Shown here piece by piece: positions 5,278 through 46,991 of a stretch of DNA of 64,000 bases. Made by a program: the position numbers and the translations under genes. The notes under the pieces were generated by a model. That model made no database searches and had not been told where the DNA came from. It was given only the letters and a program-made list of their open reading frames with translations. This DNA comes from an uncultured Bacilli bacterium (GTDB lineage: Bacteria > Bacillota_I > Bacilli_A > RFN20 > CAG-449), in NCBI GenBank assembly GCA_947591215.1, contig CANQCZ010000001.1, positions 27,399 to 91,398 of the forward strand, in the 5' to 3' direction. Position 1 is the first letter of the stretch; each line of letters begins with the position of its first letter.

Positions 5278-5375
5278 TCCTCATGAATAAAAGAAAAGAT
5301 TTCTAAAGAGCGATAGCGATTGATTTCTAAACTATTAAAAAGCTATAATATCTTGTGTATTTTAAGGAGATAAAA

Positions 5376-5945
5376 ATGAATCGTGGCTTATTGATTGTTC
5401 TTTCCGGCCCTTCTGGAGTGGGAAAAGGAACTGTCAGAAAAGAAGTGTTCAAAAATAAAAATCTAAATCTTGCTTATTCTATCTCGATGACTACTAGAAC
5501 CCCTAGAGCTCACGAAAAAGACGGAGAAGATTATTTTTTTGTAAGCGAAAAAACCTTCTTGGAAAATTTAAAAAAAGATAATTTTTTAGAACATGCGACA
5601 TTTGTCGGAAATTATTATGGGACACCGCGCAATTATGTTGAACAATTGCGTGACGAAGGGAAAAACGTCTTCTTGGAAATTGAAGTCGAAGGAGCTAAAC
5701 AAGTTTTAAGTAAATATCCTGACGATGAAGTGATTTCAATTTTCCTCTTACCACCATCTCTAGCGGAACTTGAAAAAAGAATCAGAGGACGGCGTAGCGA
5801 ACCGGAAGATATTATTCAAGAACGATTAGGAAAAGCCAAAAGAGAGATGGGATTAAAGAAAAATTACCAATATACCGTGCTTAATCGCAATGTTAAAGAA
5901 GCGGCTAGAGAAATCGTTAAAATCATTGAAAACCGAATTAAATAA
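5376..5945 (+). CDS. gmk: Guanylate kinase
   Basis: LSGPSGVGKGT P-loop. RBS AAGGAGA is 7 nt upstream of ATG 5376; the ORF track's earlier start has no RBS. Confidence 0.9.
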   Translation: MNRGLLIVLSGPSGVGKGTVRKEVFKNKNLNLAYSISMTTRTPRAHEKDGEDYFFVSEKTFLENLKKDNFLEHATFVGNYYGTPRNYVEQLRDEGKNVFLEIEVEGAKQVLSKYPDDEVISIFLLPPSLAELEKRIRGRRSEPEDIIQERLGKAKREMGLKKNYQYTVLNRNVKEAAREIVKIIENRIK

Positions 5946-5965: not shown

Positions 5966-8164
5966 TTGTTGATCTTAGAAGTTTTAATCGAATATGGAAC
6001 AGCAAGTTTAAATCGTCCTTTTTCTTATGCTTATTTGGGTGATTTGCCAATTTTTAAAGGAGTGCGGGTTTTAGTTCCTTTTGCTAGTAAAAAAATCATC
6101 GGCTTTGTCAATCAAGTTTATAAAGTTTCAGAAAATCTTGAAGAATATAAAAGAAAAGTAGGATTTGAAGTTAAAGAAATCATCAGTGTTATTGACGAAA
6201 AACCATTATTTGATGATGAATTATTAGAATTAGCCAATAAGATTTCCTCGTATTATTTATGCAGTTTGATTTCCGTTTATCAAACGATGTTACCGCCATC
6301 CCTTAAACCTAAAGTCTCTTCTTTGAGTAAACCGAAAATCGCTTATGAACTGATGGTTGAAATTATAAATGATTCTACGCTTGATCTTACTCCTAGACAA
6401 GCTTCCTTACTTTTAGAATTAAAATCATTGAATCAACCAATCAAGAAAAAAACGATAAAAACTACGGCTTTAAAAGGCTTGATTGAAAAAAAGAAAGTGC
6501 GAGTGTTTAAACAAGAAGTAACTAGGTTCCAATTAGATAATATCGATTATGAAGAAGAAAAAAAATTGAATGAAGAACAAAGTGATGCTGTAAAACAAAT
6601 TTTAGAATCTAATGATAAAGTGTTTCTTCTTGAAGGAGTGACGGGATCCGGTAAAACCGAAGTCTATTTGCATGTTGCCAAAGAAATCTTAAATCGCGGT
6701 CAAAGCGTTTTGATGCTTGTCCCGGAGATAGCATTAACCGCGAAAACAATACGCCAGTTTCAAGCGCGATTTAAAAATCTTGCCGTTTTACATAGCGATC
6801 TAAGCGATGGTGAAAAATATGACGAATATCGTCGGATTGCTAAAGGCGAAGTTAACTTAGTGATAGGGGCTAGAAGTGCGATTTTTGCGCCACTTCAAAA
6901 CTTAGGTCTTATCATTATTGATGAGGAACATTCTGAAACATACAAACAAGATAACGCTCCATTTTATCATGTAAACAAAGTTTCGTTAATGCGCAGTGAA
7001 ATTTGTCAGTGCAAAGTTGTGTTTGGATCCGCGACGCCATCTTTAGAAACTAGAGTGCGAGCAATGCGGGGAATTTATCACCATCTTCGTTTAACGCGGA
7101 GAATCAATAATCAAGATTTACCGCATGCAGAAATTGTCGATATGTTGAATCCGAAAAATATCGATCGTGAATCGGTGATTTTTTCTAAGATTCTTCGAGA
7201 AAAAATCAAAGATCGCTTACAAAAAAAAGAGCAAGTTATCCTTTTGGTGAATCGCCGCGGTTATTTTACATATATCTCTTGTCGAAAATGCGGACATGTA
7301 ATCAAATGTCCCGAATGCGATATCCCATTAACATATCATCATCAAGAGCAAATTTTAAAATGTCATCATTGCGGATATGAAAGAGAGATGAGCGAAGAAT
7401 GTCCTAAGTGTCATTCACCTTATCTTTCTAAAACCGGATTTGGAACCGAACGTGTCGAAAAAGAAGTGGCACGTTTATTTCCCGATGCAAAATGTGCACG
7501 GCTTGATAGTGATGTCGGAAGACTAAAAAATAACATAAAAAAAATACTTGATGAATTTAGCGAACAAAAAATCGATATTTTGATCGGTACTCAAATGATT
7601 GCCAAAGGACACGATTTTGAAAATGTCACTTTGGTAGGTGTTGTTTTGGCAGATTTGACACTAGCATTACCATCTTATCGAGCAGGTGAAAAAACTTTTG
7701 CTTTAATTACTCAAGCTATCGGAAGAGCGGGGCGCAAAGATAAAATGGGAGAAGCGATAATTCAAACTAATAATCCACGTAATTATGCGATTTATGATTC
7801 AAGCACACAAGATTACGAAAGATTTTTTAATGAAGAAATGATCCGTAGAAAATTGCATCAAGATCCGCCTTTTACATATTTGACGCTTTTAACACTAAGC
7901 GCGGTCAAAGAAGAAGTTTTGATGGAACGTGTTTATGATGTGATATCCTTTTTGGAAGTTAAATTTGAAAATAAAAAAGTTTTGATTGTCGGACCGAGCG
8001 AACCTTTTATTTTGCGCTTGAACGGACATTATCGACGAAACATTCTATTGAAGTATAAAACAGATAAAGAAGTTAAATCAGTTCTTGAAGAATTGAATGA
8101 GATAATTTCCAAAAGAAGCGATTGTACTTTATCGATTAACATCGATCCATACGATGACTACTAG
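5966..8164 (+). CDS. priA: Primosomal protein N' (PriA helicase)
   Basis: Walker A LLEGVTGSGKTEVYL, DEEH box, two Cys4 zinc clusters (CRKCGH…CPECD, CHHCGY…CPKC). RBS AAAGGGGG precedes a TTG start. Confidence 0.9.
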   Translation: MLILEVLIEYGTASLNRPFSYAYLGDLPIFKGVRVLVPFASKKIIGFVNQVYKVSENLEEYKRKVGFEVKEIISVIDEKPLFDDELLELANKISSYYLCSLISVYQTMLPPSLKPKVSSLSKPKIAYELMVEIINDSTLDLTPRQASLLLELKSLNQPIKKKTIKTTALKGLIEKKKVRVFKQEVTRFQLDNIDYEEEKKLNEEQSDAVKQILESNDKVFLLEGVTGSGKTEVYLHVAKEILNRGQSVLMLVPEIALTAKTIRQFQARFKNLAVLHSDLSDGEKYDEYRRIAKGEVNLVIGARSAIFAPLQNLGLIIIDEEHSETYKQDNAPFYHVNKVSLMRSEICQCKVVFGSATPSLETRVRAMRGIYHHLRLTRRINNQDLPHAEIVDMLNPKNIDRESVIFSKILREKIKDRLQKKEQVILLVNRRGYFTYISCRKCGHVIKCPECDIPLTYHHQEQILKCHHCGYEREMSEECPKCHSPYLSKTGFGTERVEKEVARLFPDAKCARLDSDVGRLKNNIKKILDEFSEQKIDILIGTQMIAKGHDFENVTLVGVVLADLTLALPSYRAGEKTFALITQAIGRAGRKDKMGEAIIQTNNPRNYAIYDSSTQDYERFFNEEMIRRKLHQDPPFTYLTLLTLSAVKEEVLMERVYDVISFLEVKFENKKVLIVGPSEPFILRLNGHYRRNILLKYKTDKEVKSVLEELNEIISKRSDCTLSINIDPYDDY

Positions 8165-8229: not shown

Positions 8230-8766
8230 ATGATAAATGTTACGTTAAAAGGTATTGATATTTATCTTGCCGGAGAATTTGATCGTGAAATTCATAGCAA
8301 ATTAGCTTCATTATTTCATGTGCGCTCTGAAGATATCATTACTACGGCTTTGGAATCTTTAGTATTTCATCAAGGAGTCGACCAAACTACTTACCAATTG
8401 GTTATTAAATTTGAACTTCCAGAATGTTATCGACAATATGAAAAAGTAGTTGCGGATTATGTTTTATCTGCGAGCAAAGATTTTTCGGTACACACGCTTT
8501 GTTATTTTATATATGTGAAAGAAGAAAATATCTATGAACGCATCGATGAAGATTATCCGCGGTTTATGGATGAAAAAAATATCGTCGAATATGACGAAGA
8601 TGATTCAAATGAGAGTGAAGAACAGGAAGTCTTTACCGGAAACATCTTTCAAAATTTTGATAAACATAGTGAGCATAAACACCATCACTGTTGCGATGAT
8701 GAAAGTTGCGATTGTGAGCATGATTGCGATGATGACAATTGCGAATGCGATTGTAAACATCACTGA
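8230..8766 (+). CDS. Hypothetical protein with an extreme Cys/His/Asp-rich C-terminal tail (HKHHHCCDDESCDCEHDCDDDNCECDCKHH)
   Basis: RBS AAGGAG upstream. The N-terminal 120 aa are globular with no recognised family. It sits between priA and the rsmB-like gene, where def-fmt are found in Bacillus. Confidence 0.6.
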   Translation: MINVTLKGIDIYLAGEFDREIHSKLASLFHVRSEDIITTALESLVFHQGVDQTTYQLVIKFELPECYRQYEKVVADYVLSASKDFSVHTLCYFIYVKEENIYERIDEDYPRFMDEKNIVEYDEDDSNESEEQEVFTGNIFQNFDKHSEHKHHHCCDDESCDCEHDCDDDNCECDCKHH

Positions 8767-8783
8767 TTGATCAAAATAAGGAG

Positions 8784-10073
8784 TTGAGAAATATGCAATT
8801 TTTAAATGAAGCAGTTACTTATTTAGAGGCTATCAAAAACAAGGATATATCTTTCACTAACGTTATCAACAAAAAAATCAATACTTTAGCGTTAGATAGC
8901 GATGAACTCGATAAGCTCAAGGGAACTCTAAAAAGCGTTATAAATTGCTACCATTTCCTTTTTTGGGAAATAAATTCTCACTTCTTTGAAAAAGACGAGG
9001 CAGTTAAAGATGCACTTATCGTCAGTTTGGCAGCTCTTCGCTACGTAAAAAATGTCGATGAAAGTGCCGTAAAAGAATTTTTAACCGCTTATAAAGAAAA
9101 TAAAGGTCTTGATTTTGATGTCGATGAAGCTATGAATTTTTTATTAAGCATCAAGGCTGAGTCTACTCCAATACCGGAAAAATATGAAAAAGCCTTTGCC
9201 AAAAAGATGGCTTTGAAATACGCTTATCCCGAGTGGATTGTGCGAATGTTAATCAAACATTTTGGCATTAAGCACACTTTTAAATCTTTGGCCTCTTCGC
9301 GAAAAGCGGTAAAGTTATCTTTGAGCGTTAATCCACTTAAAACTAATGTTTTTGATATCGTTAACAACAATAGCGATTTCACACTTGGAAAATTAGGTTC
9401 ACTATCCATGCGTTATGGTGGTAAAACAAAGCTTATTGAATATGCGGCTTTCAAAGACAATGAGTATTTCATGATGGATGAATCCAATCAATTTGCCATC
9501 GATCAATTAGAACCTTTAGATGGCGAAGAAGTGTTTGTTTATGGTGATGCTAAAGGGCTTATGGCTTGCGATTTAGCGTTGATGATGAATGATATCGGAA
9601 GAATTAACACTTGTCTTACAAACATCAACGATTTGAATGTGACGCGCAATATGATTCGTCGTTTCGGTCTTCGCTCGATTTATGCTTTTGAAGAAGCGTC
9701 ACTTAATCTTTTGATTACTCATATAGAGCCTAATAGTTTAGATAAAATGCTTTTACTAGCGCCTTCTTCTGAATTAGGTTTAATCAGAAGAAGTCCGGAT
9801 ATTTTATTGACTTTAAAGCGAGAAGATTTAGATGGAATTATCGATAATCAAAGAAAATTATTGGAAGAAACCGCGCCGTTTATTAAAGATGAAGGTCTTC
9901 TTCTTTACATGGTCAAAACGATGAATAAAAAGGAATCGACTAAGATCATTGAAGAATTTTTGACTAACCATTCGGAATTCACTCTAGTAGACGAAAGACA
10001 AGTCTTCCCATACGAATACTTCTGCGATGGTTTCTACTATGCCAAGCTTAAAAAAACAGGAAAAAATGAATAA
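8784..10073 (+). CDS. RsmB/Sun-family protein that appears catalytically degenerate (NusB-like N-domain plus a decayed methyltransferase domain)
   Basis: Positional orthologue of rsmB, immediately upstream of rlmN. ...MLLLAPSSELGLIRRSPDI aligns to the DAPCSGTGVIRRHPD motif IV with Cys changed to Ser. ...LYMVKTMNKK aligns to motif VI (TCS) with the Cys lost. Confidence 0.65.
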   Translation: MRNMQFLNEAVTYLEAIKNKDISFTNVINKKINTLALDSDELDKLKGTLKSVINCYHFLFWEINSHFFEKDEAVKDALIVSLAALRYVKNVDESAVKEFLTAYKENKGLDFDVDEAMNFLLSIKAESTPIPEKYEKAFAKKMALKYAYPEWIVRMLIKHFGIKHTFKSLASSRKAVKLSLSVNPLKTNVFDIVNNNSDFTLGKLGSLSMRYGGKTKLIEYAAFKDNEYFMMDESNQFAIDQLEPLDGEEVFVYGDAKGLMACDLALMMNDIGRINTCLTNINDLNVTRNMIRRFGLRSIYAFEEASLNLLITHIEPNSLDKMLLLAPSSELGLIRRSPDILLTLKREDLDGIIDNQRKLLEETAPFIKDEGLLLYMVKTMNKKESTKIIEEFLTNHSEFTLVDERQVFPYEYFCDGFYYAKLKKTGKNE

Positions 10074-11107
10074 TGATAAATTTATATGGACTTACTTTGG
10101 AAAAGCTCGAGGAGCTGATGCTTCTTGAAGGACAAAAAAAATATCGTGCAACTCAATTGTTCACATGGATTTATGAAAAAAAAACGACTACTTTTGATGA
10201 AATGAGCGATGTCTCGAAAAGTTTTCGGGAAGTTTTAAAACAAAAATTTTGCTTGCTGAAACCGAAAGTTTTTTTGCGGCAAAATGCTAAAGACGGCACC
10301 ATCAAACTTCTTTTGGAAATGGCAGACGGCGCAAAAGTCGAAACAGTATTGATGCGTTACAATTATGGTAATGTGATTTGTGTGTCTTCACAGGTCGGAT
10401 GCAACATGGGCTGTTCTTTTTGTGCTTCGGGTTTACTTAAAAAAACTCGTAATTTGACCGTAGACGAAATGGTTGGAGAAGTGCTTTGTGTCAATGATAT
10501 TCTTTTTGAAGAAAACGGAGAACGGGTAACGCACATTGTGGTTATGGGAACCGGAGAGCCGTTTGATAATTATGAAAATGTTATCGATTTTATAAAAATC
10601 GTCAATAATCAGAAGGCTTTTGCAATCGGTGCGCGCCATATCACCGTTTCGACATGCGGCATTCCCGATAAAATCATTCGCTATGGTCAAGAAGGACTGC
10701 AGGTTAACTTAGCCATTTCACTCCACGCCCCTAACGATACTTTGCGTTCAAAATTGATGAAGATCAATCGTGCTTATCCTTTAAAAGTGCTCATTGAAGC
10801 GGTAAAGCAATATATTGCTGATGCTTCGCGGAGAGTGACGTATGAATATATTTTATTGGATGGGGTGAATGATTCTTTAGAAGATGCTGATGAATTGAGC
10901 GAATTAATAAAGCCGACGTTTGCTTATGTTAATTTGATTCCATACAATGAAGTTACCGAAAATGAATTTAAACGTTCCAAAAATGCTAAAGCTTTTATGG
11001 ATCGTTTAATAAAAAACGGGGTCAATTGTACAATCAGAAAAGAATTCGGTGCCGATATCGATGCTGCCTGTGGTCAACTTCGGGCTAAACAGGAGAAAAT
11101 CATATGA
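10073..11107 (+). CDS. rlmN: 23S rRNA m2A2503 / tRNA methyltransferase RlmN (radical SAM)
   Basis: CNMGCSFCASG radical-SAM cluster motif. Conserved position upstream of stp/prkC. Confidence 0.9.
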   Translation: MINLYGLTLEKLEELMLLEGQKKYRATQLFTWIYEKKTTTFDEMSDVSKSFREVLKQKFCLLKPKVFLRQNAKDGTIKLLLEMADGAKVETVLMRYNYGNVICVSSQVGCNMGCSFCASGLLKKTRNLTVDEMVGEVLCVNDILFEENGERVTHIVVMGTGEPFDNYENVIDFIKIVNNQKAFAIGARHITVSTCGIPDKIIRYGQEGLQVNLAISLHAPNDTLRSKLMKINRAYPLKVLIEAVKQYIADASRRVTYEYILLDGVNDSLEDADELSELIKPTFAYVNLIPYNEVTENEFKRSKNAKAFMDRLIKNGVNCTIRKEFGADIDAACGQLRAKQEKII

Positions 11108-11829
11108 AGTGCGTATTTAAAACGGATGTCGGAAAAATTCGCAAGGTAAATGAAGATCAAGCCGTGGTCAAAAAGAATGAAACAGGTGATATCTTGCTTT
11201 TGGTTTTAGATGGTATGGGTGGTCATCAATATGGAAAATTAGCTTCATCAAAAGCGGCAGAGTTTATTGCCAAAAAATTCGAAAAGAAAAAAATTTTTAA
11301 GAATAGTCTTGTAGCTTATCGATGGTTGAAAAATACCATAAAAAATGCCAATCAATTGATCAATAAAATGGGTGAAGAAAATCCGCTTTATCGTGATATG
11401 GGTACGACCGTAGTCGCCGGGTTAATTGTTAAAGATAAACTGGTGATGGCCAATGTCGGTGATTCAAGAATCTATGGAATCAAAGAAAACATCATCCAAT
11501 TGAGCGATGACGAAACCTATGTTCAGTTTTTATATAAAACCGGTAAAATCACTAAAGAGGAAATGAAAACACATCCTAAAAAGCATGTACTGACCAATGC
11601 CCTTGGCACTTATCCATGTATGACTATTCAAATGAAAGTATTTGATCTTAATTTCGACTATTTGTTGCTTTGTTCCGATGGACTTTATAACGAAGTAAAC
11701 GAAGAAAAAATTCTTAAAATATTAAAAGAAGCGGTACCTTTAGAGGAAAAATGCGAAAGATTGATTTCATTAGCCAATAAGTGTGGTGGCAAGGACAATA
11801 TAACGGTTGTTTTATGGGAGGCAAACTGA
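11104..11829 (+). CDS. stp: PP2C-family Ser/Thr phosphatase (Stp/PrpC)
   Basis: MKCVFKTDVGKIRKVNEDQ...LDGMGGH...DNITVV PP2C motifs. Overlaps its neighbours by ATGA. Confidence 0.85.
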   Translation: MKCVFKTDVGKIRKVNEDQAVVKKNETGDILLLVLDGMGGHQYGKLASSKAAEFIAKKFEKKKIFKNSLVAYRWLKNTIKNANQLINKMGEENPLYRDMGTTVVAGLIVKDKLVMANVGDSRIYGIKENIIQLSDDETYVQFLYKTGKITKEEMKTHPKKHVLTNALGTYPCMTIQMKVFDLNFDYLLLCSDGLYNEVNEEKILKILKEAVPLEEKCERLISLANKCGGKDNITVVLWEAN

Positions 11830-12707
11830 TGAAACTAGGCGATATTATTGATGAAAGATATAAGATTAAAACTATATTAGGCGAAGGCGGAATGGCGATT
11901 GTTTATGCGGCAGAAGATCTGATTTCAAAAAAAGATGTAGCAATCAAGATCATCAAAGAAGAAACGATGAAAAATCCGGTTAATTTGACGCGATTTGAAC
12001 GTGAAGCACGAGCGGCGGCAAGCTTAAATCACCAAAATATTGTTCGGGTCATCAATTTAGGGACTCATGAAGGGAGACCCTATATGGTGACCGAACTTGT
12101 CAAAGGTCAAACTTTAAAAGAAGCGTTGAACGTACGCGGCAAATTTTCTTCAATGGAAGCTTGCGATATCATGTATCAGTTGTGTTCCGCGGTTCTTCAT
12201 GCTCACGAACACGGAGTGATTCATCGTGATATCAAACCGCAAAATGTTTTCATTATGGCTGATGGAACTATTAAACTTGGGGATTTTGGCATTGCTACTT
12301 TTCAACATGATGCGCGAATTACTCGAAGCGAAGTAGTCGTTGGTTCCGTCCATTATTTGGCTCCGGAAATTTCTAAAGGTGAATCGCAAGCTTCGCCTCA
12401 ATCGGATGTTTATGCTTTAGGAATCACTTTTTTCGAACTTATTACGGGACGTGTTCCTTTTGACGATGAATCGGCGGTTACCGTGGCTTTAAAACATATA
12501 AAAGAGAAGTTTCCGTCACCGAAAAAATATAATCCTAAGACTCCGGCGGTTATTGAAAAAATAATTGAAAAAGCTTGCCGCAAAGATCCTTCCGATCGCT
12601 ATCAAAGTGCGTTTGAAATGCGCGTGGATATCGAAAGAATTTTGCGCAATCCTTCAATAATTCAAAAACAATCGTTCTTCAAACGATTATTTTCGCATAA
12701 AAAATAA
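11829..12707 (+). CDS. Ser/Thr protein kinase (PrkC-like kinase domain only; no TM or PASTA region)
   Basis: GEGGMAIVY...AIK, HRDIKPQN, DFG, APE Hanks motifs. ATG 11829 overlaps the stp stop (ATGA). The protein ends after the kinase domain (292 aa). Confidence 0.85.
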   Translation: MKLGDIIDERYKIKTILGEGGMAIVYAAEDLISKKDVAIKIIKEETMKNPVNLTRFEREARAAASLNHQNIVRVINLGTHEGRPYMVTELVKGQTLKEALNVRGKFSSMEACDIMYQLCSAVLHAHEHGVIHRDIKPQNVFIMADGTIKLGDFGIATFQHDARITRSEVVVGSVHYLAPEISKGESQASPQSDVYALGITFFELITGRVPFDDESAVTVALKHIKEKFPSPKKYNPKTPAVIEKIIEKACRKDPSDRYQSAFEMRVDIERILRNPSIIQKQSFFKRLFSHKK

Positions 12708-30761: not shown

Positions 30762-31301
30762 TTAAATTAATACCGCGTTGCCTTTGCGTTTAAAGCGATC
30801 GTTACGATCGATTCGATCGTAATACAAAATTCCATCCAAATGATCGATCTCGTGCTGTAAGACGATCGCATCATATCCTTTAGCGTCGATTTCGATTTGC
30901 TTATCTTGAAGTAAATCGTAAGCACTCACTTTGATTTTGTAGGATCGATAGACATATCCTTTATGATCGTCAGGAACCGAAAGACATCCTTCGCCATTAC
31001 TTAAGGCGACCTCTTTCAGTGAGTTTTGAATAATTTTCGGATTGACTAAACAATATTCGATTTTTTTATCATCGTAGGTATATGAAATGGCAATCATTCT
31101 TTTATTGATTCCAACTTGTGGGGCCGCAAGTCCGACACCGGAACGGATTTTGTGTTTTTCACAATATTCTTCATTTGAGGATTTCCGCAAATAATCAAGC
31201 ATTTCAAGCAAAACCTTTTTCTCGTCCTCCTTCAAAGGAAGGTCACAAGGGAAAGATTTTTTTCGCAACGATTTTACTTTATCGGTAACAATTTTAAGCA
31301 T
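30762..31301 (-). CDS. def: Peptide deformylase
   Basis: GVGLAAPQVG, EGCLSVP, HEIDHLDG motifs. Confidence 0.9.
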   Translation of the reverse strand: MLKIVTDKVKSLRKKSFPCDLPLKEDEKKVLLEMLDYLRKSSNEEYCEKHKIRSGVGLAAPQVGINKRMIAISYTYDDKKIEYCLVNPKIIQNSLKEVALSNGEGCLSVPDDHKGYVYRSYKIKVSAYDLLQDKQIEIDAKGYDAIVLQHEIDHLDGILYYDRIDRNDRFKRKGNAVLI

Positions 31302-31737: not shown

Positions 31738-32106
31738 ATGAATAAATTTGAAGAATTTAAAGCATTCGCCCATACAAAACCCTTTTTAAAGGAACGTGTA
31801 AGTCGCCATGAAACAACATGGCAAGAGTTATACGAAAGATACGATATTTATGGAGAAGATGATGAAGTTTTTAAAGAAAAACCACCTGAGGATACCTCTT
31901 CTAAGAAGGAAGAAAAAGACACTAAAGACGGTGGTTTAGGTTCTCTTTTTGACGTCATCGCTTCATTTGATGCCGATAAGATCAGCGAAGGGTTGAATGG
32001 TATGAAAAAAATTCTCAATGTACTAGCGGAAGTCACCGCTTCTGATGAGCCAAGCGTGATGTCTAAAAGAAAAATGACACGGCCGTATTCGAGGGATGAT
32101 GATTAA
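31738..32106 (+). CDS. Hypothetical protein (YlbD-like by position)
   Basis: RBS AAAGGTGA before ATG 31738. Acidic 122-aa protein upstream of YlbE/YlbF-like genes. Confidence 0.45.
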   Translation: MNKFEEFKAFAHTKPFLKERVSRHETTWQELYERYDIYGEDDEVFKEKPPEDTSSKKEEKDTKDGGLGSLFDVIASFDADKISEGLNGMKKILNVLAEVTASDEPSVMSKRKMTRPYSRDDD

Positions 32107-32315
32107 TGAGAAGTGAGATTATAATGGCATTGGATAAAGATGTTGATTATTATGTTTTCATGAGAGAAAACCCCAAGTGGTATCGGATCTTAAGCCGCGA
32201 TCCAACTCAGTTAAAAGCTTTTTTTGAAGAATACAAATTAGTTCGTAGAAAACGTGTCGTCGATCGCATCGAAGATATTTCAATGATGGTTAATTTGGCA
32301 AAAGAGTTAATGTAA
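32106..32315 (+). CDS. Small protein, YlbE-like
   Basis: 69 aa, overlapping its neighbours by start/stop. Synteny with the ylbD-ylbE-ylbF arrangement. Confidence 0.45.
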   Translation: MRSEIIMALDKDVDYYVFMRENPKWYRILSRDPTQLKAFFEEYKLVRRKRVVDRIEDISMMVNLAKELM

Positions 32316-32345
32316 CAAAATCGAGGATTATGATATACTTTAAAT

Positions 32346-32699
32346 ATGCAACAAGATGATTTAGAAAATAAAATCGAAGCGATAGCGCACGAAATAAAAA
32401 ACATGGATGAAAGAAAAAAACTTGTGGAACTTTCCACTAAAATGGAAAATGATCCGGAAGTGATAAAGCTTTCATTAATTTTTCAAAATGCCCAAGAAAA
32501 TTATAATTTTGTTTTAAAGCATTTTAAAGAGGATAGCGAAGAAGTAAAAAAAGCCCAAAAAAGCCTTTACGAAGCTAAAAAAAATTTAGATGAACATCCG
32601 TTAGTAAGAGAGTATAACGCTTTTTATGTCGCATCCAACGAACCTTTAAGATATTTAGAACTAAATTTGATTTATAAATTAAATTCAAAAAAATTATGA
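32346..32699 (+). CDS. YheA/YmcA/YlbF-family regulatory protein
   Basis: 117-aa helical protein (…KLVELSTKMENDPEVIKL…YNAFY…) matching the Com_YlbF family pattern. Confidence 0.6.
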   Translation: MQQDDLENKIEAIAHEIKNMDERKKLVELSTKMENDPEVIKLSLIFQNAQENYNFVLKHFKEDSEEVKKAQKSLYEAKKNLDEHPLVREYNAFYVASNEPLRYLELNLIYKLNSKKL

Positions 32700-33093
32700 A
32701 ATACTTCGTAGGAAGTATTTTTAATTTGCTCAGAAAATGGTATTCGAAAGTGAAAAGGGGAATGGGAGTTCAATCAAATAATGTGGTATTGTTTTTTAGA
32801 AGTTTTTTCCTTAAATTCTTTTCAAAAAATAGTAAATATATCTTTAATAGATACATCGTTTTCAAGCTTTTTAGCATAATAACAATTATTAAGTTTTCTT
32901 ACTCATTATAAAATGCTTCTTTACCATAAAAAGAAGCTATTTTAATTGTAATCTAAAAATTGAATGCTAATTCAAGTTCTTATCGATTGTTAAATCGATT
33001 TTGTTCTATAAAAATTTTTACAATTTATTTGTTGCGCCGGCAATTCTATTGATAATAAATTATTGATGTGTATTGTTATTAGGGAAATTAAAT

Positions 33094-33369
33094 ATGATAA
33101 AAAGAGGGAATATAGCAAATTTAGAAAAATTTTCTAATCAAAATATTTTTAAAATTTCTTATGTATTAAAGGTAGTAGATTATGCAACGGGAACGATTTA
33201 TTATTCCGAGTTTTATTATGCTTATGTAAGTAAACAAATAATTACAATGGAAAAAATTTCGGAGCGATTAAATATATCGAATAATACTTTAAAGCAACAC
33301 ATAAAGAAAATTAATAGCATTATAAATGCCGTAGAAACAATTACAGATGATGATTTTATAAAAATATAA
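33094..33369 (+). CDS. Small hypothetical protein with a helix-turn-helix-like segment
   Basis: …MEKISERLNISNNTLKQHIKKIN… resembles an HTH. First gene of the AT-rich island. Confidence 0.4.
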   Translation: MIKRGNIANLEKFSNQNIFKISYVLKVVDYATGTIYYSEFYYAYVSKQIITMEKISERLNISNNTLKQHIKKINSIINAVETITDDDFIKI

Positions 33370-33401
33370 TAAATTTCAAATTTATCATATTTTTGCTTAT
33401 G

Positions 33402-33428
33402 TTACCAGCCCGATTTTATGGCTGGTAA
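33402..33428 (+). terminator. Possible terminator hairpin
   Basis: TTACCAGCC-CGATTTTAT-GGCTGGTAA 9-bp stem. The downstream U-run is weak. Confidence 0.35.
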
Positions 33429-33476
33429 ATAGTATTTAATATTGCTTATCATAAAAGTGTCGAAAGGAGTCGGAAA

Positions 33477-33938
33477 ATGAATCTTGAGGAATTGCAAGAC
33501 TTTAAATTTTATTTATCATTAAGCTTTGTGATAGTGTTATCATCTATACTTACTATCATTACGGTGGAAATTATAAAGCTAATTCTTAAAAAGAAAAAAA
33601 TAATCACCGAAGAAACAGACGCAGATAAAAAAGACCAGTTACTAATTAAAATCGGTCGATTTGTAGCGCTTCTAATTTATACCATAGTATATCTTATAAA
33701 AGAATTTCTTCTTAAGCATGATCTCATATTCAATGAAGCGTTATTTATCGGACTTCTTTCTGGAGGTGCAGTTACCTTAACAGTTGCTAAAGGATTATAT
33801 ACATCCTTTAGACAAAGTCAAAAAAAGAAAAAGGTGTTCGATAAATTAACTGAAGCGGAAAGTAAGTTAGAAGCTTTACAAAAAGAAGCGCTTGAAAAGC
33901 AAACGAAGATAATATTAACCAGAAAGGAGAGGAACTAA
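33477..33938 (+). CDS. Membrane protein (3 TM) with a C-terminal Lys-rich coiled coil; holin-like architecture
   Basis: RBS AAAGGAG upstream. TM segments, then …KVFDKLTEAESKLEALQKEALEKQTK. Confidence 0.5.
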   Translation: MNLEELQDFKFYLSLSFVIVLSSILTIITVEIIKLILKKKKIITEETDADKKDQLLIKIGRFVALLIYTIVYLIKEFLLKHDLIFNEALFIGLLSGGAVTLTVAKGLYTSFRQSQKKKKVFDKLTEAESKLEALQKEALEKQTKIILTRKERN

Positions 33939-33939
33939 C

Positions 33940-34605
33940 GTGAAATTATTAATGTCATCAATTATTGTACCTAAAATACAACTCCAATATATAAGGGATA
34001 GCAATAAAATTTTTAGAGTAATATCTGAAAGCATTGATCCATTATTTAAACAATTGTTATCTGATAAAAGTATTCGTGTGCAAGTATGGTTGGAACGTGA
34101 AGTTAGAAAATTATCTAATTCAAGAATAAAAAGAAGTTGGGTTCATTCATGCGATATGTCAAATAAAAGACCGACCAAGTTATTTACTAACGGAGAGTAT
34201 AATTATGGTGGTGGCAATGGCTGGGGTTGGAAAGGTAATGATGTGCCATCTTATACAACAACGAATGGAATTGTACCAACTGAATTTGAGGTCACATTAT
34301 CAGATATACAAAATGATTTATTAGTTATAAAGTTTCCTGTAGTTGATATATTTAGCAATATTTTAAAAAAGAAAAAAAGTGGCACATCCGCTAAAGATGG
34401 TGATTTGATTGAGGATTTAGCAATTATATCTAGAGGACGAGCCACGTACCAAATTATAAGAGCTAAATTAGTAGTTAATTATGCTGGTAAAGTCATAATG
34501 AGTGAACCAAGTAATTCGATTATGCTTGGGATTCATAGGAAAAAAGACGCTGTCTTTGATTCGAAAAACTTAGAAAGTTTTATAAAGATCGGAAGGTTCA
34601 TTTAG
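33940..34605 (+). CDS. Hypothetical protein (221 aa)
   Basis: GTG start 6 nt after RBS AAAGGAGAGG, adjacent to the previous stop. No recognised family. Confidence 0.5.
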   Translation: MKLLMSSIIVPKIQLQYIRDSNKIFRVISESIDPLFKQLLSDKSIRVQVWLEREVRKLSNSRIKRSWVHSCDMSNKRPTKLFTNGEYNYGGGNGWGWKGNDVPSYTTTNGIVPTEFEVTLSDIQNDLLVIKFPVVDIFSNILKKKKSGTSAKDGDLIEDLAIISRGRATYQIIRAKLVVNYAGKVIMSEPSNSIMLGIHRKKDAVFDSKNLESFIKIGRFI

Positions 34606-34727
34606 TATAAAGAACATTGATTGTTTGTCCATTAGCTCTAATTATTACTATATTCAAGATAGTTTTAATTTTGATATTTGGCAACCTGTCTAAGCCATGG
34701 TGTGAAACGTTCTAATTCTTATACTAT

Positions 34728-34750
34728 AAATCGGAGTTTAAATCCGATTT
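34728..34750 (+). promoter_or_regulatory. Hairpin immediately upstream of the rhs-operon RBS
   Basis: AAATCGGA-GTTTAAA-TCCGATTT stem-loop, 25 nt before ATG 34776. Possible terminator or attenuator separating the upstream three-gene module. Confidence 0.3.
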
Positions 34751-34775
34751 TTAATATTAAGAAAGGAAAATAAAA

Positions 34776-36323
34776 ATGAAATCATTTACACTTAAAGACA
34801 AAACAAATAAAAACATTAATATTGAAACAGCGAAGTTGGATATTGAAAATTCACGTCAAGAAGATATTTCGAAGCGTACGTTATTTGCTAAGCATTTTAT
34901 TAACGATGATGGAACTTACACTATGGAAGTAAGTCCATTCCCAATTCATTATTACGATACTAAAACTAAATCTTATGAAGAGATTGATAATACCCTTGAA
35001 GAATCTAATGGTAAGTTCTCAATTAAAAAAAATAAGATGAAATTATCATTTAATAAAGAAATTAGCGATGATGCTCCATTGTTTAATATCGAAAAAAAAG
35101 GACATCGTTTTCAACTTTTTTATCTTGGTAAAAAAGAGAAGGTTGGAAATAAAGTTTTAAGAAAAGTAAAAGGGAAAACTAAACGTTTTACAAAACAGAT
35201 AAGTAACTTAACTTATGAAGAAATTGAACCAAAAATCGATTTAGAATATAGCGTTCAATACAATAGAATTAAAGAAAACATTATTATTAAAGAACGGCAA
35301 GAAAGCTATGAATTTTCTTTTTTAGTAAATGTAGGGACATTAACTGTCAGTTTAAAAAAAGATGATTCATGTATTGAATTAGTAGATGCACATCAAGAGG
35401 TTCAATATATAATTCCCTCACCGATCATGTTTGATCAAAATAATAATTCTTCTACCGATTTAGGATATGAAATCGAAATAAGTGAAGATGGTAATCTTAT
35501 TTTCACCTTAAAAGCAGATGCTGATTGGATCAATTCTAATGAACGGGCTTTTCCCGTCGTTATTGATCCGCAAGTTGTGATAACAATTGATGATAATAAT
35601 ATCACAAAACATTTTCAGATAAAAAATAATGTTGCTTCAGTAGCGGGTACCAAGGGATATATAGATAATTCATCGTCATCGAATGCATATTTAATTGCTA
35701 TTGATGTAAGTAGTCTCTTATCGACAAAAATATCTTATGCTGAACTGATTTTTGAAAATGCTAATACTATGCCAAATAGTGCGTCGATACAGGCAAAGTA
35801 CTACAATATTAATAATGATGAAGTAAATAGTTCTTCTTTTACGATTAATACATCTAAGGAAAGCAATTTTACAAGTTTCACAGGACCAACATCAGGAAAA
35901 GCCTCACTTATTATGCCGGGAGCTTTAAATAAATGGATAAGCGAAAAAAAACAAATTGGAGCATTATTATTTAGATCGACAGGTTTATATGCTGGTTCAT
36001 ACACTTTTTATCCACCGACATTAAGTATTAAATATACTTTACAAATTTCAGCTCCTAGTTTTTATATCAATTTGAAAAATGATTGTATTACAGAAATCGT
36101 TACTGGCGCTGACGTCGGATTAAGATACGCTGCTAGAGAAAAAGGAGTTTTAACTACTTATGTCGATCAAACAAGTAGTAAAGTTTATCAAATTTTAAAT
36201 ATACAAGACAGGATTTATACGCGAAGAAATAATAACGATTTAGATAATTGGAACGAGTGGGAAAAACATAGTTTACGGGCTAAATTACAAAATGGTAATT
36301 TGTATTTAACAGATGAAGATTAA
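34776..36323 (+). CDS. Hypothetical 515-aa protein co-oriented with, and 15 nt upstream of, the Rhs gene (putative Rhs partner/accessory protein)
   Basis: RBS GAAAGGAAAA upstream. No signal peptide. Beta-rich, Asn/Ser-rich sequence. Tight linkage to rhs suggests an operon. Confidence 0.55.
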   Translation: MKSFTLKDKTNKNINIETAKLDIENSRQEDISKRTLFAKHFINDDGTYTMEVSPFPIHYYDTKTKSYEEIDNTLEESNGKFSIKKNKMKLSFNKEISDDAPLFNIEKKGHRFQLFYLGKKEKVGNKVLRKVKGKTKRFTKQISNLTYEEIEPKIDLEYSVQYNRIKENIIIKERQESYEFSFLVNVGTLTVSLKKDDSCIELVDAHQEVQYIIPSPIMFDQNNNSSTDLGYEIEISEDGNLIFTLKADADWINSNERAFPVVIDPQVVITIDDNNITKHFQIKNNVASVAGTKGYIDNSSSSNAYLIAIDVSSLLSTKISYAELIFENANTMPNSASIQAKYYNINNDEVNSSSFTINTSKESNFTSFTGPTSGKASLIMPGALNKWISEKKQIGALLFRSTGLYAGSYTFYPPTLSIKYTLQISAPSFYINLKNDCITEIVTGADVGLRYAAREKGVLTTYVDQTSSKVYQILNIQDRIYTRRNNNDLDNWNEWEKHSLRAKLQNGNLYLTDED

Positions 36324-36338
36324 TGGAGAAAATAAATA

Positions 36339-41066: not shown

Positions 41067-41081
41067 TTATTGGGTGATATT

Positions 41082-41417
41082 ATGAGAATTGAATCTTTAA
41101 AGCAACTTTATGAGATAATATTAAAAAAAATGCCGAGTTATAAGATAGTGTTAAATGAAAGCAATTTAATTATTGAAAATTCGGCGAATCACTTTATTAA
41201 AATAGTTTTTAACCATGGTTTCTTTGATGTTTATATTGATAATTTTCATTATTATGATGTTGATACGTGGGATATAGAAGACACTATCGAGTCTATTATG
41301 ACAGAAGAATACATTTTATTTAAGAATAATACAGTTTATACTTTATCGCAAAAACAATACGAAAAAGTTATAAAAAAAGATAAGAAGGCATGTATAATTA
41401 AATTTAATAATGATTAA
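41082..41417 (+). CDS. Candidate immunity protein for the main Rhs C-terminal toxin
   Basis: Small ORF starting 16 nt after the rhs stop and co-oriented. No family recognised. Position is typical of Rhs immunity genes. Confidence 0.5.
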   Translation: MRIESLKQLYEIILKKMPSYKIVLNESNLIIENSANHFIKIVFNHGFFDVYIDNFHYYDVDTWDIEDTIESIMTEEYILFKNNTVYTLSQKQYEKVIKKDKKACIIKFNND

Positions 41418-41616
41418 TATTTATGATGTGTCATTTCCTTATAAAATAGAAAAAATCAATAGTGGATGGGTTTATTGTAGGTAGGTTCTATGGTAGAGCA
41501 ATTAAAAAGAGTTTTAAATAGTGTTAAAGAAGAGATAAAAGTGAAAATTTCATTTGGGATAAAGAAAAAATAATTTCTGTTGCGAAACCTAAAAATGGAA
41601 GAATTATAGTCCAGTC

Positions 41617-41931
41617 GAAACAGGACTATATTATTGCAATTCTAGATATTATTCACCAGAACTTTGTAGATGGTTAACACCTGATTCCATTGATTATTTA
41701 GACCCTAAATCTATTAATGGATTAAATCTATATTGTTATTGTTATAATAATCCAGTAATGTACGCTGATCCTAGTGGACATTTTGTGATAACACTGATTG
41801 CAGGTTTAACAATATCGTTTTTAATAGGTGCTATATCGAGTACAATTAGTCAATATGTTCAATATGGTGAAGTAAACTGTCTTCAAGCAGGAGTTGATGG
41901 ATTGTTTGCTTTAGCAAAAAATAGAAAATAG
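41617..41931 (+). other. Orphan rhs C-terminal cassette 2: core-end repeat (41617-41781) fused to a short, probably truncated 50-aa C-terminal domain. No in-frame start upstream of the internal Met.
   Basis: In-frame stop at 41590-92. Then ETGLYYCNSRYYSPELCRWLTPDSIDYLDPKSINGLNLYCYCYNNPVMYADPSGH, followed by FVITLIAGLTISFLIGAISS…AKNRK and a stop at 41929-31. Confidence 0.7.
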
Positions 41932-41980
41932 TGAAAGACTTTCACGAGCAAAATAATTTTATAAAAGGAGGATGTTAAGT

Positions 41981-42430
41981 ATGAAAATATATTATAAATT
42001 AAGTGATAATTATAATCCAAATTATATAGTAAAATATGATGATAACTCTTTTGGAGCTTATGGAGTGTATTTTGATTTTCAAGTTGTATTAACATCAGCT
42101 GGTTCAGTTATTTTAAATTTTGATCTTTATTCAAAGAGATGTGAATCATGTGAAGGATATCTAGCAATTAAAATTAATAAGAAAACTAAATACGAAAATA
42201 TAGATATTGAAAATTATAGTAATGGTGAATTATTAATTGAACTAGATGATTTTGAAAAAGAGGTACCTATGTGTGAATACTTATTAGACGGTAAGTTTAA
42301 ATATGATATTAACAAATCACGAATTTGCATAGGTAATATTAATAGTAACGAAGTTATTATGTTTGGCAAAGGTCAATATGCATCCTTTCAAAATGGCAAA
42401 TTAATTGGTGTAATTATAGATTTAAAATAA
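41981..42430 (+). CDS. Candidate immunity protein of cassette 2
   Basis: RBS AAAGGAGG is 9 nt before ATG 41981. 150 aa, contains CESCEGY. Follows the orphan C-terminal domain. Confidence 0.5.
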   Translation: MKIYYKLSDNYNPNYIVKYDDNSFGAYGVYFDFQVVLTSAGSVILNFDLYSKRCESCEGYLAIKINKKTKYENIDIENYSNGELLIELDDFEKEVPMCEYLLDGKFKYDINKSRICIGNINSNEVIMFGKGQYASFQNGKLIGVIIDLK

Positions 42431-42470
42431 ATAGCAAATTACTTTCACAAGCACAATATGTAAGTTTACT

Positions 42471-43196: not shown

Positions 43197-43211
43197 AGGA
43201 GATTAAAAATT

Positions 43212-44493: not shown

Positions 44494-44535
44494 TAAGATA
44501 ATAAAGTCGAATAGCATTATATTAGATTTTTTTAC

Positions 44536-45191: not shown

Positions 45192-45218
45192 AAACAATTT
45201 GGAGGGTAAGTAATAATT

Positions 45219-46864: not shown

Positions 46865-46991
46865 CAAAATAATTATGTTTTAACACAAACTTGCAGGGGT
46901 GTGTCTATTCAATGGAAAATCTTTTATCAGCTCATTAATGATAATCATATATGGTTAAAATGGTTTAGTTATTATTTATAGGAGAAATCAA

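What the first reader, a model, noticed from the sequence alone, without database searches (positions are those of the whole stretch)
8784..10073. Positional rsmB orthologue that has lost both catalytic cysteines
The gene occupies the priA-…-rsmB-rlmN-stp-prkC-rsgA-rpe slot and retains the NusB-like N-domain and the overall methyltransferase domain layout. Motif IV reads LAPSS instead of DAPCS, motif VI reads KTM instead of TCS, and the SAM-binding motif I is degenerate. This predicts an RNA-binding but methylation-dead protein. The def-fmt pair usually found between priA and rsmB is also absent here; def lies at 30762 and no fmt is in the window.
Basis: partly seen in the sequence, partly recalled or inferred. 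Interest (0 to 1): 0.55.

Follow-up and report, generated by a model that had tools for sequence, protein, structure and literature searches.

The report
Catalytically dead RsmB methyltransferase homologue
The gene in the usual rsmB slot of this uncultured gut bacterium keeps the full RsmB fold but has lost every residue needed to bind the methyl donor and methylate RNA, and it belongs to a large, conserved, undescribed clade of such "dead" RsmB proteins that always sit next to the same small partner gene.

Summary
The ORF at 8784-10073 (probable true start ATG 8793, 426 aa) sits in gmk-priA-orf178-[this gene]-rlmN-stp-prkC-rsgA-rpe-tpk. An AlphaFold model matches E. coli RsmB over its whole length (TM 0.82).

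Sequence, profile and profile-profile alignments all replace both catalytic cysteines (C325->S, C375->K), the motif IV Asp (->L), the motif II Asp (->L) and the motif I loop AAPGGK (->GDAKGLM).

It is not a decaying pseudogene. dN/dS against two close relatives is 0.06-0.12, the same as its neighbours.

It is not a one-off. A profile search found at least 132 cluster representatives (50% identity clusters) with the same losses. They group together in a tree. Every source organism name recovered (six clusters) is an uncultured Bacilli or Erysipelotrichaceae MAG.

In all 21 family loci (19 of them distinct) a small gene lies upstream: tautomerase-fold, DUF1904-like, with an acidic tail. It lies directly upstream in 18 of them. 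It occupies the place of def-fmt and is absent from 58 canonical rsmB loci.

Methylation-dead: about 0.9 confidence. The proposed role, a non-catalytic ribosome-biogenesis factor acting with the small partner, is inference. RNA binding is unproven, because the NusB-like domain has lost its signature motif and its positive charge.

Verdict: new variant of a known kind; moderate interest.

The parts
8793..10073 (+). RsmB-like pseudo-methyltransferase CDS ('rsmBx', 426 aa). The ORF can be extended to TTG 8784, but ATG 8793 is the likely start.
   Evidence: PF01189 scores 66.7 bits (gathering cutoff 27). The NCBIfam RsmB equivalog NF011494 aligns residues 7-422 but scores only 148.6 bits against a cutoff of 319. 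The AF2 model has pLDDT 92.7 and matches E. coli RsmB 1sqg with TM 0.82. dN/dS is 0.06-0.12.
8778..8783 (+). Shine-Dalgarno AAGGAG, 9 nt upstream of ATG 8793
   Evidence: Read directly from the sequence. Homologues start at the equivalent Met.
9540..9566 (+). Remnant of motif I (SAM-binding loop): Y250-G-D-A-K-G-L-M-A258. Active enzymes have (D)xCAAPGGK(T/S) here.
   Evidence: D252, A256, P257, G258 and K260 are invariant in 43/43 active relatives. In 132 dead homologues these positions are variable, and none keeps D252 or K260.
9756..9770 (+). Remnant of motif IV: L322-A-P-S325-S326, in place of D-A-P-C-S
   Evidence: The Asp and Cys are invariant in active relatives. In the dead clade the Cys position is S 92, N 31, C 8, D 1.
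9912..9920 (+). Remnant of motif VI: V374-K375-T376, in place of T-C-(T/S). The nucleophile Cys is replaced by Lys.
   Evidence: 0 of 132 dead homologues keep this Cys. The position is variable (P, N, Y, F, D, T, K and others).
8230..8766 (+). orf178, the co-conserved small partner gene. Its N-terminal ~110 residues have a tautomerase/MIF-type DUF1904-like fold without Pro1. A disordered acidic tail follows. The Cys/His-rich end of the tail is shared only with the closest relatives and, in part, L007.
   Evidence: There is no Pfam or NCBIfam hit for the window copy. Homologues give weak PF08921 hits in 10 of 14. In the AF2 model residues 1-110 are confident, and Foldseek's top hits are 4m1a (DUF1904) and 1u9d. 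The gene is present in all 21 family loci that include upstream DNA and in 0 of 58 canonical rsmB loci.
10073..11107 (+). rlmN. Its start overlaps the rsmBx stop codon (TAATG at 10071-10075), as in translationally coupled genes.
   Evidence: TIGR00048 E 2.2e-123. The overlap is read from the sequence.
5966..8164 (+). priA, the upstream anchor of the conserved slot. In other Bacillota, def-fmt follows priA; here orf178 does.
   Evidence: Comparison locus L026 (Alkalibacterium) has priA-fmt-rsmB-stp-prkC.
30762..31301 (-). def (peptide deformylase), located away from the priA-rsmB slot
   Evidence: PF01327 E 2.7e-43.

Best explanation
The gene is the positional orthologue of rsmB. It has become a pseudoenzyme. 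It keeps the three-domain RsmB fold but can neither bind S-adenosylmethionine nor carry out the two-cysteine m5C chemistry, so it does not methylate C967 of 16S rRNA. These points are shown at the sequence, profile and model level.

It is nevertheless kept under purifying selection across a large clade of uncultured gut Bacilli. It stays inside the ribosome-biogenesis operon, with its stop codon overlapping the rlmN start, and always has the same small acidic tautomerase-fold protein (orf178) upstream, directly so in 18 of 21 loci.

The most likely role is inferred, not shown. I propose a methylation-independent ribosome-biogenesis factor that still docks on 16S rRNA or the nascent 30S head. 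Docking would use the conserved C-terminal half of the methyltransferase fold and the newly basic central domain. It would act as a chaperone, placeholder or checkpoint, and orf178 would be its partner or regulator. This is the non-catalytic role already demonstrated for its eukaryotic relatives Nop2/NSUN1 and NSUN4.
For: Loss of chemistry:
- Alignments to 2yxl, 1ixk, 2frx and 1sqf, a 175-sequence alignment and hhalign all agree.
- D252, A256, P257, G258, K260, D322, C325 and C375 are invariant in 43/43 active relatives, and D277 is D or E in all 43. All of these are replaced in the window protein.
- 0 of 132 dead homologues keep D252, K260, D322 or C375.
- No cysteine is conserved anywhere in the family.

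Fold kept: AF2 pLDDT 92.7 and pTM 0.88. Foldseek gives TM 0.82 to E. coli RsmB over its full length.

Still functional:
- dN/dS is 0.12 and 0.06 against L005 and L006. Neighbouring genes give 0.01-0.14.
- Intact full-length ORFs persist at 20-44% identity in 14 GTDB species loci and 5 further metagenome loci with the same synteny.

Pattern of constraint: the dead/live conservation ratio is 0.59 in the SAM-binding half and 0.66 in the N-terminal domain. It is 0.89 in the central domain and 0.85 in the C-terminal half. S326, R332, P335, D/E336, G368, Y372, T376 and E381 (132/132) are retained.

Order of loss fits known biochemistry: 8 sequences keep only the motif IV (release) Cys, and none keeps only the nucleophile Cys. 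Release-Cys mutants are often deleterious for growth (PMC4510066).

Precedent: the presence of Nop2, not its catalysis, is what pre-rRNA processing requires (PMC4510066). NOP2/NSUN1 has non-catalytic functions (PMC9561284). NSUN4 has a dual role (PMC3916286).

Operon: the rsmBx stop overlaps the rlmN start (TAATG). No intrinsic terminator with more than 5 stem pairs was found on the + strand between gmk and tpk.
Against: No RNA-binding or ribosome-binding evidence exists.

The NusB-like domain is proposed to bind RNA in RsmB (my own knowledge of the E. coli Fmu work, not checked here). In this clade it has lost its FVNGVLR signature and its positive charge (+4.7 to -2.9; window -6). The whole protein is acidic (pI 5.6).

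The gene evolves faster than rlmN, prkC and priA (35-44% identity against 52-78%).

In most Mollicutes rsmB is simply lost without replacement (PMC4014445), so a non-catalytic role for RsmB is not universal.

Conservation of the C-terminal half could reflect fold stability or a protein-protein interface rather than RNA contacts.

I could not inspect model coordinates to see whether the SAM pocket is physically occluded.
Confidence: 0.55

Rival explanations
1. The protein is a prozyme-type partner. The dead RsmB no longer acts on its own. It binds and activates or targets another enzyme, either the intact RsmF-type m5C methyltransferase of the same lineage or the co-transcribed RlmN. Other dead methyltransferase paralogues work this way (TbPRMT1 prozyme; METTL14 with METTL3).
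For: An intact RsmF-like gene lies 5-8 kb downstream in 5 of 14 related loci. It has AAAPGGK, DAPCSGSG and YSTCS motifs, a PUA domain, and PF01189 at 162 bits. The rsmBx stop overlaps the rlmN start. The best-conserved parts of the dead clade could form a protein interface. The prozyme precedent is in bioRxiv 10.1101/776112.
Against: No RsmF-like gene lies in the 64-kb window or next to the gene in the closest relatives. As far as I know RsmB, RsmF and RlmN act as monomers without partners (own knowledge). The dead gene is the positional orthologue of rsmB, not a recent duplicate of RsmF.
Confidence: 0.12
2. The protein has a new, non-ribosomal function built around the orf178-rsmBx pair. The RsmB scaffold would have been recruited as a binding module for the acidic-tailed tautomerase-fold protein or for some other ligand. 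Its place in the operon would then be historical.
For: The two genes co-occur strictly in 21 loci (19 distinct). orf178 is absent from 58 canonical loci. Charge is redistributed: the central domain goes from -2.7 to +4.8, and orf178 has net charge -28 with a conserved EIYTGNIF motif in a disordered tail. RNA-binding hallmarks of the N-terminal domain are lost.
Against: The operon context (rlmN, rsgA and, close downstream, rimP-nusA-infB) is kept over deep divergence. The motif IV-VIII half that surrounds the target base in active enzymes is the best conserved part. The former SAM pocket region shows no conservation, so no new conserved ligand pocket is evident there.
Confidence: 0.2
3. The protein is still an active methyltransferase that uses non-canonical residues, for example a relocated nucleophile or another cofactor.
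For: Some pseudoenzymes have 'migrated' catalytic residues (review PMC10211241). Eight clade members keep the motif IV Cys.
Against: No Cys is conserved anywhere in the family (invariant columns). The whole SAM-binding half shows no conserved residue across the clade. The Asp residues that hold the SAM ribose and amino group are replaced by hydrophobic residues.
Confidence: 0.03
4. The gene is a pseudogene in slow decay, or an annotation or assembly artefact, with no function.
For: It evolves faster than most neighbours. NCBI labels its relatives 'hypothetical protein'.
Against: dN/dS is 0.06-0.12. An identical protein is encoded on four independent metagenome contigs. Full-length intact ORFs persist in 132 or more diverged representatives. 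The AF2 model is confident.
Confidence: 0.02

Closest known systems
RsmB / Fmu / Sun (16S rRNA m5C967 methyltransferase; E. coli PDB 1sqf/1sqg; B. subtilis YloM)
   Same: Same genomic slot (priA ... rsmB-rlmN-stp-prkC-rsgA-rpe). Same three-domain fold (TM 0.82 to 1sqg). The Pfam RsmB/F domain is detected. Shared motifs include YPEW...G, LIRR.PD, G.L.Y, T, KE and DGFYYAKL.
   Different: It lacks the motif I SAM loop, the motif II and IV Asp residues and both catalytic Cys residues. It falls far below every NCBIfam RsmB equivalog cutoff. The NusB signature and the positive charge of the N-terminal domain are lost. It is preceded by orf178 instead of def-fmt.
Nop2/NSUN1 and NSUN4 (eukaryotic and mitochondrial RsmB-family proteins with catalysis-independent roles in ribosome assembly)
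   Same: They belong to the same protein family (Foldseek hits to Nop2 in pre-60S particles and to NSUN4). They show that the scaffold can be needed in ribosome biogenesis independently of methylation (PMC4510066, PMC9561284, PMC3916286).
   Different: Those proteins still carry intact catalytic sites and do methylate. Here the catalytic apparatus has been erased by evolution. The target subunit and the partners differ.
Dead-paralogue methyltransferase pseudoenzymes (TbPRMT1 prozyme; METTL14)
   Same: A methyltransferase fold is retained under selection without cofactor or catalytic residues.
   Different: Those are paralogues that heterodimerise with an active copy. This gene is the positional orthologue itself, and no active partner is known.
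DUF1904 / tautomerase-MIF superfamily (PDB 4m1a, 1u9d), for the partner orf178
   Same: Duplicated beta-alpha-beta fold of about 110 residues (Foldseek E 5.5e-07; weak PF08921 hits).
   Different: There is no N-terminal Pro1 (the protein starts Met-Ile/Val). It carries a ~70-residue acidic disordered tail with a conserved IYTGNIF motif. It is fixed next to the dead rsmB.

Membership tests
RsmB (16S rRNA m5C967 methyltransferase) | Three-domain architecture: N-terminal NusB-like helical domain, central domain and Rossmann methyltransferase domain | tested here: met
   AF2 model pLDDT 92.7. Foldseek gives TMq 0.82 to 1sqg over 443 columns and 0.76 to 2yxl. NF011494 aligns residues 7-422 to profile positions 9-443.
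RsmB (16S rRNA m5C967 methyltransferase) | Score above the curated equivalog HMM cutoffs | tested here: not met
   NF011494 148.6 bits against 319. TIGR00563 115.9 against 269. NF008149 95.7 against 375. Only the general domain model PF01189 passes (66.7 against 27).
RsmB (16S rRNA m5C967 methyltransferase) | SAM-binding residues: motif I (D)xCAAPGGK, motif II Asp, motif IV Asp | tested here: not met
   The window has V-Y-G-D-A-K-G-L-M, Leu and Leu at these positions. Active relatives are invariant, except that motif II is D or E.
RsmB (16S rRNA m5C967 methyltransferase) | Motif IV Pro-Cys (release cysteine, E. coli C325) | tested here: not met
   Ser325.
RsmB (16S rRNA m5C967 methyltransferase) | Motif VI Thr-Cys (nucleophilic cysteine, E. 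coli C375) | tested here: not met
   Val374-Lys375.
RsmB (16S rRNA m5C967 methyltransferase) | Conserved genomic position in Bacillota (after priA[-def-fmt], before rlmN-stp-prkC-rsgA-rpe) | tested here: met
   The comparison locus is L026.
RsmB (16S rRNA m5C967 methyltransferase) | Forms m5C967 in 16S rRNA | not testable with these tools
   This needs biochemistry or rRNA modification mapping. The window contains no rRNA gene.
Pseudoenzyme (catalytically dead homologue kept by selection) | Clear homology to an enzyme family, with the catalytic and cofactor residues lost | tested here: met
Pseudoenzyme (catalytically dead homologue kept by selection) | Purifying selection and long-term retention | tested here: met
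   dN/dS 0.06-0.12. 132 diverged full-length representatives. Conserved synteny in 19 distinct loci.
NusB-like RNA-binding domain (Pfam PF01029) | Detected by the Pfam model; FVNGVLR-type signature; basic surface | tested here: not met
   PF01029 is not reported for the window protein at E <= 0.01, although it is precomputed for the active relatives. The signature aligns to AMNFLLS. Net charge is -6, against +4.7 in active relatives. Only the helical fold is retained.
DUF1904 / tautomerase superfamily (partner orf178) | beta-alpha-beta tautomerase fold; catalytic N-terminal Pro1 in the enzymatic members | tested here: inconclusive
   The fold is met (Foldseek 4m1a E 5.5e-07). PF08921 is hit only weakly, in 10 of 14 homologues, and not by the window copy. 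Pro1 is absent.

The most novel reading that the evidence does not exclude
The dead RsmB and its constant neighbour orf178 form a previously unrecognised two-protein, methylation-independent module of small-subunit biogenesis or translation-initiation control. The module arose once, in the ancestor of a large clade of uncultured gut Bacilli, when def-fmt left the priA-rsmB slot. The pseudoenzyme would still recognise the h31 region or 30S head. The acidic tail of orf178 would gate that binding by mimicking nucleic acid.
Probability: 0.2. Interest if true: 0.7.

Novelty: new variant of a known kind. Interest (0 to 1): 0.52.

Why it matters
It would be a bacterial case in which an rRNA methyltransferase has been turned by evolution into a pure scaffold and kept for a long time. 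For the eukaryotic relatives (Nop2, NSUN4), mutant studies show that the protein matters more than the methyl group. Here nature has done the separation-of-function experiment, which gives a clean system for asking what RsmB-family proteins do apart from methylation.

It also has a practical side. IMG-type pipelines annotate these proteins as '16S rRNA (cytosine967-C5)-methyltransferase'. Inferences about rRNA modification in these gut lineages (the RFN20-like Bacilli to which the named relative CAG:449 belongs) would then be wrong.

The strictly co-occurring DUF1904-like gene also gives a first functional lead for that domain of unknown function.

Tried and rejected
- Pseudogene or artefact: rejected on dN/dS, on identical copies in four independent contigs, and on 132 or more intact homologues.
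- Relocated catalytic cysteine: rejected. No Cys column is conserved in the family.
- orf178 as a degenerate Def or Fmt remnant: rejected. Its predicted fold is tautomerase/MIF-like, not deformylase or formyltransferase.
- A second m5C methyltransferase or an fmt inside the window: none found by tblastn or motif regex.
- Broadening the taxonomic picture with an alignment query of the word-indexed protein search: it added almost nothing, because only 8000 candidates were scored.
- Foldseek against afdb50, which would have given organism names: the library was not available.
- Rfam and tRNA scans of the window: empty, so the 16S target site could not be inspected.
- Promoter and terminator scan of 5.2-16.1 kb: counts are not above the shuffled expectation. 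It shows only that no + strand terminator-like site inside the operon has more than 5 stem pairs.
- Literature searches for a described dead RsmB clade and for DUF1904 function: nothing relevant found.
- Extra genes between orf178 and rsmBx (L015, L016, L018) or between priA and orf178 (L013) in related loci: those checked, in L015 and L013, are unrelated, for example a ketopantoate reductase.
Full report
**1. What is in the sequence**

The ORF listed at 8784-10073 on the plus strand is real. The TTG at 8784 is a mechanical extension. An in-frame ATG at 8793 lies 9 nt downstream of an AAGGAG Shine-Dalgarno site (8778-8783). It gives a 426-aa product that starts exactly where all homologues start.

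- gmk, 5355-5945
- priA, 5966-8164
- an unannotatable 178-aa ORF (orf178), 8230-8766
- the RsmB-like gene
- rlmN, 10073-11107
- a PP2C phosphatase (stp), 11104-11829
- a Ser/Thr kinase of only ~300 aa without PASTA repeats, 11781-12707
- rsgA, rpe and thiamine pyrophosphokinase
- further downstream, rimP-nusA-infB

The rsmB-like stop codon overlaps the rlmN start (TAATG). No + strand terminator-like site between gmk and tpk has more than 5 stem pairs.

**2. Homology and fold**

The protein passes the general RsmB/F domain model (PF01189, 66.7 bits against a cutoff of 27). It aligns end to end with the NCBIfam RsmB equivalog models but falls far below their cutoffs (148.6 against 319; 115.9 against 269).

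An AlphaFold2 model built on 33 sequences is confident (pLDDT 92.7, pTM 0.88). Its best Foldseek matches in the PDB are P. horikoshii PH0851 and E. coli Fmu/RsmB (1sqg: TM 0.82, 443 aligned columns, 18% identity). Nop2 in pre-60S particles, RsmF, NSUN6 and NSUN4 follow. The whole three-domain RsmB architecture is therefore retained, including the N-terminal helical domain.

**3. The catalytic apparatus is gone**

Three independent kinds of alignment agree:
- pairwise HMMER alignments to four crystal-structure sequences
- a 175-sequence MAFFT alignment anchored on E. coli numbering
- an hhalign profile-profile comparison of 132 'dead' against 44 'live' sequences (probability 100%, E 3.6e-67, 416 columns)

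By coincidence the window numbering equals the E. coli numbering in this region. The substitutions are:

| Motif | Active enzymes | Window protein |
|---|---|---|
| I | D252-x-C-A-A-P-G-G-K260 | V-Y-G-D-A-K-G-L-M |
| II | D277 | Leu |
| IV | D322-A-P-C325-S | L-A-P-S-S |
| VI | T374-C375-(T/S) | V-K-T |

The conclusion is unaffected.

In 43 active relatives every one of these residues is invariant, except D277, which is Asp or Glu. In the 132 dead homologues none keeps D252, K260, D322 or C375, and the positions are variable. No cysteine column is conserved anywhere in the family.

**4. It is a functional gene, not a wreck**

An identical protein is encoded on four independent metagenome contigs. 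Against two MAGs at 96% protein identity (rabbit-gut 'uncultured Bacilli bacterium', L005 and L006), Nei-Gojobori dN/dS is 0.12 and 0.06. This lies within the range of its nine neighbours (0.01-0.14).

Fourteen species-level genomes carry orthologues at 35-96% identity with identical synteny. Among them is 'Firmicutes bacterium CAG:449', a name used for a family of the order RFN20 (PMC10868615). The gene evolves faster than rlmN, prkC or priA (35-44% against 52-78% identity) and about as fast as stp, rpe and tpk.

**5. It is one member of a large, unnamed clade**

A full HMMER search of 1.84 billion cluster representatives with the family profile gave 485 hits below E 1e-30.

I pooled the near-full-length (380 aa or longer) hits among the top 150 with the homologues found and the window protein, 175 sequences in all. 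Of these:
- 124 lack both cysteines
- 8 keep only the motif IV cysteine
- 43 are intact, 11 of them the intact RsmBs from the first homologue search
- none keeps only the motif VI nucleophile

That asymmetry fits the known biochemistry. Losing the release cysteine while keeping the nucleophile traps the enzyme on RNA (my own knowledge) and is often deleterious for growth (PMC4510066). In a neighbour-joining tree all cysteine-less sequences form one contiguous group, separate from the intact ones. This is consistent with a single origin, but it is only a distance tree.

Every name recovered for clade members is a MAG label: 'hypothetical protein [Bacilli bacterium]' or '[Erysipelotrichaceae bacterium]'. 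IMG calls several of them 16S rRNA m5C967 methyltransferase. I found no description of such a clade in the searchable literature. In classical Mollicutes rsmB is simply lost in most groups (PMC4014445).

**6. Where constraint remains**

Across the 132 dead sequences the region of motifs I-III shows no consensus at all. Relative to active relatives, conservation is retained as follows:

| Region | Residues | Dead/live ratio |
|---|---|---|
| N-terminal (NusB-like) domain | 1-134 | 0.66 |
| Central domain | 135-230 | 0.89 |
| Methyltransferase, SAM-binding half | 231-315 | 0.59 |
| Methyltransferase, C-terminal half | 316-426 | 0.85 |

Retained residues include S326, R332, P335, D/E336, G368, Y372, T376 and E381 (132/132) and the C-terminal YYA.L.K motif. 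This is the side of the fold that surrounds the target base in active m5C RNA methyltransferases (my own knowledge).

The NusB-like domain behaves differently. It has lost the FVNGVLR signature. It is not detected by Pfam PF01029. Its mean net charge has changed from +4.7 to -2.9, and is -6 here. The central domain has gone the other way, from -2.7 to +4.8, and is +8 here. If the protein binds RNA at all, it probably does not do so in the ancestral way. 'RNA-binding' is a hypothesis, not a finding.

**7. The partner gene**

orf178 has no Pfam or NCBIfam hit itself. A homologue of it lies upstream of the dead rsmB in every family locus that includes upstream DNA, including the most distant pairs (23-30% identity; L077-L083). 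It lies directly upstream in 18 of the 21; L015, L016 and L018 carry about 2.7 kb of unrelated genes in between. That makes 21 loci, 19 of them distinct. An HMM of the family finds nothing in 58 loci with canonical rsmB.

Ten of 14 homologues give weak DUF1904 hits. An AlphaFold model (residues 1-110 confident, 122-178 disordered) matches DUF1904 structures 4m1a and 1u9d and then MIF and cis-CaaD. That is the tautomerase superfamily fold. The catalytic N-terminal proline of tautomerases is absent.

The tail is strongly acidic (net -19) and carries a conserved EIYTGNIF motif. Only the closest relatives and, in part, L007 share the Cys/His-rich end.

In canonical Bacillota the space between priA and rsmB holds def-fmt or fmt; L026 has priA-fmt-rsmB. 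Here def sits at 30762-31301 on the minus strand, and no fmt is detectable in the window. A related genome has fmt about 8 kb upstream (L012). Because def is present, fmt is expected elsewhere in this genome: def can be inactivated only when fmt is too (PMC4014445).

**8. Other m5C methyltransferases**

Five related loci carry an intact RsmF-type gene 5-8 kb downstream on the other strand. It has AAAPGGK, DAPCSGSG and YSTCS motifs, a PUA domain and PF01189 at 162 bits. None lies in the window or beside the gene in the closest relatives. Whether this genome holds an intact rsmB or rsmF elsewhere cannot be tested with these tools.

**9. Interpretation**

Shown:
- the gene is the positional rsmB orthologue with the RsmB fold
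- the SAM-binding and catalytic residues are erased
- the gene is under purifying selection
- it belongs to a large clade
- it is strictly linked to orf178

Inferred:
- it is methylation-dead (confidence about 0.9)
- it has a retained non-catalytic function (confidence about 0.9)

Most likely mechanism (confidence about 0.45-0.55): a methylation-independent ribosome-biogenesis factor acting on 16S rRNA or the nascent 30S subunit, with orf178 as partner or regulator. The analogy is to the catalysis-independent roles of Nop2/NSUN1 and NSUN4 (PMC4510066, PMC9561284, PMC3916286).

Rivals are a prozyme-type partner of RsmF or RlmN, a new non-ribosomal function of the orf178-rsmBx pair, residual non-canonical activity, and plain decay. 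The last two are effectively excluded.

**10. Verdict**

The finding is larger than reported, because it is a clade with a conserved partner and not a single gene. It remains a variant of a known theme: a pseudoenzyme derived from an rRNA methyltransferase. Interest is moderate.

Noticed in passing
window 8230-8766 (+): orf178 is a small protein with a DUF1904/tautomerase-type fold but no Pro1. It has a ~70-residue acidic disordered tail, and in this lineage the tail ends in a Cys/His/Asp-rich stretch (HKHHHCCDDESCDCEHDCDDDNCECDCKHH). It lies upstream of the dead rsmB in all 21 family loci examined (directly upstream in 18) and is absent from 58 canonical rsmB loci.
   Followed up: yes
L009 17015-18310 (-), L013 18587-19912 (-), L015 16532-17827 (-), L016 16533-17828 (-), L018 16541-17827 (-): An intact RsmF-type m5C methyltransferase (all catalytic motifs, PUA domain) lies 5-8 kb downstream of the dead rsmB in five related genomes. 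There is no counterpart in the 64-kb window or beside the gene in the closest relatives L005 and L006.
   Followed up: partly
window 11781-12707 (+): The PrkC/Stk1-type Ser/Thr kinase is only ~300 aa. The kinase domain is present, but the transmembrane segment and PASTA repeats of the canonical enzyme are missing (NF033483 matched only over profile positions 2-274 of 563). The relatives have the same short form.
   Followed up: no
window ~32000-48000, especially 36339-41066 (+): A low-GC stretch (25-30% against ~35% elsewhere) with strong positive GC skew encodes a 1575-aa RHS-repeat/DUF6531 protein followed by many small ORFs. It looks like a polymorphic-toxin locus with immunity or orphan cassettes.
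   Followed up: no
L012 812-1750 (+): The only fmt found in any of the related loci lies about 8 kb upstream of the dead rsmB, on the far side of a rearranged spoU/NFACT block. This shows that fmt was displaced from the priA-rsmB slot rather than lost in that genome.
   Followed up: partly
L081 5585-6877, L083 5941-7215 and proteins P0075, P0085, P0089, P0097, P0109, P0140, P0165, P0184: A subset of the dead clade still has the motif IV cysteine (for example IPNCSKFD) but lacks motif I and the motif VI cysteine. No sequence shows the reverse pattern. This suggests an order of loss.
   Followed up: partly
window 47423-51631 (-): A 1402-aa surface protein carries a GH81 (endo-beta-1,3-glucanase) domain, two F5/8 type C domains and an Ig-like domain. 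It suggests beta-glucan degradation by this gut bacterium.
   Followed up: no
L015 7255-9907, L013 6944-9292: In some relatives unrelated genes have been inserted between orf178 and the dead rsmB, or between priA and orf178. They include a ketopantoate reductase and large ORFs of 525-782 aa with no Pfam hit. The pair is therefore not always strictly adjacent.
   Followed up: partly
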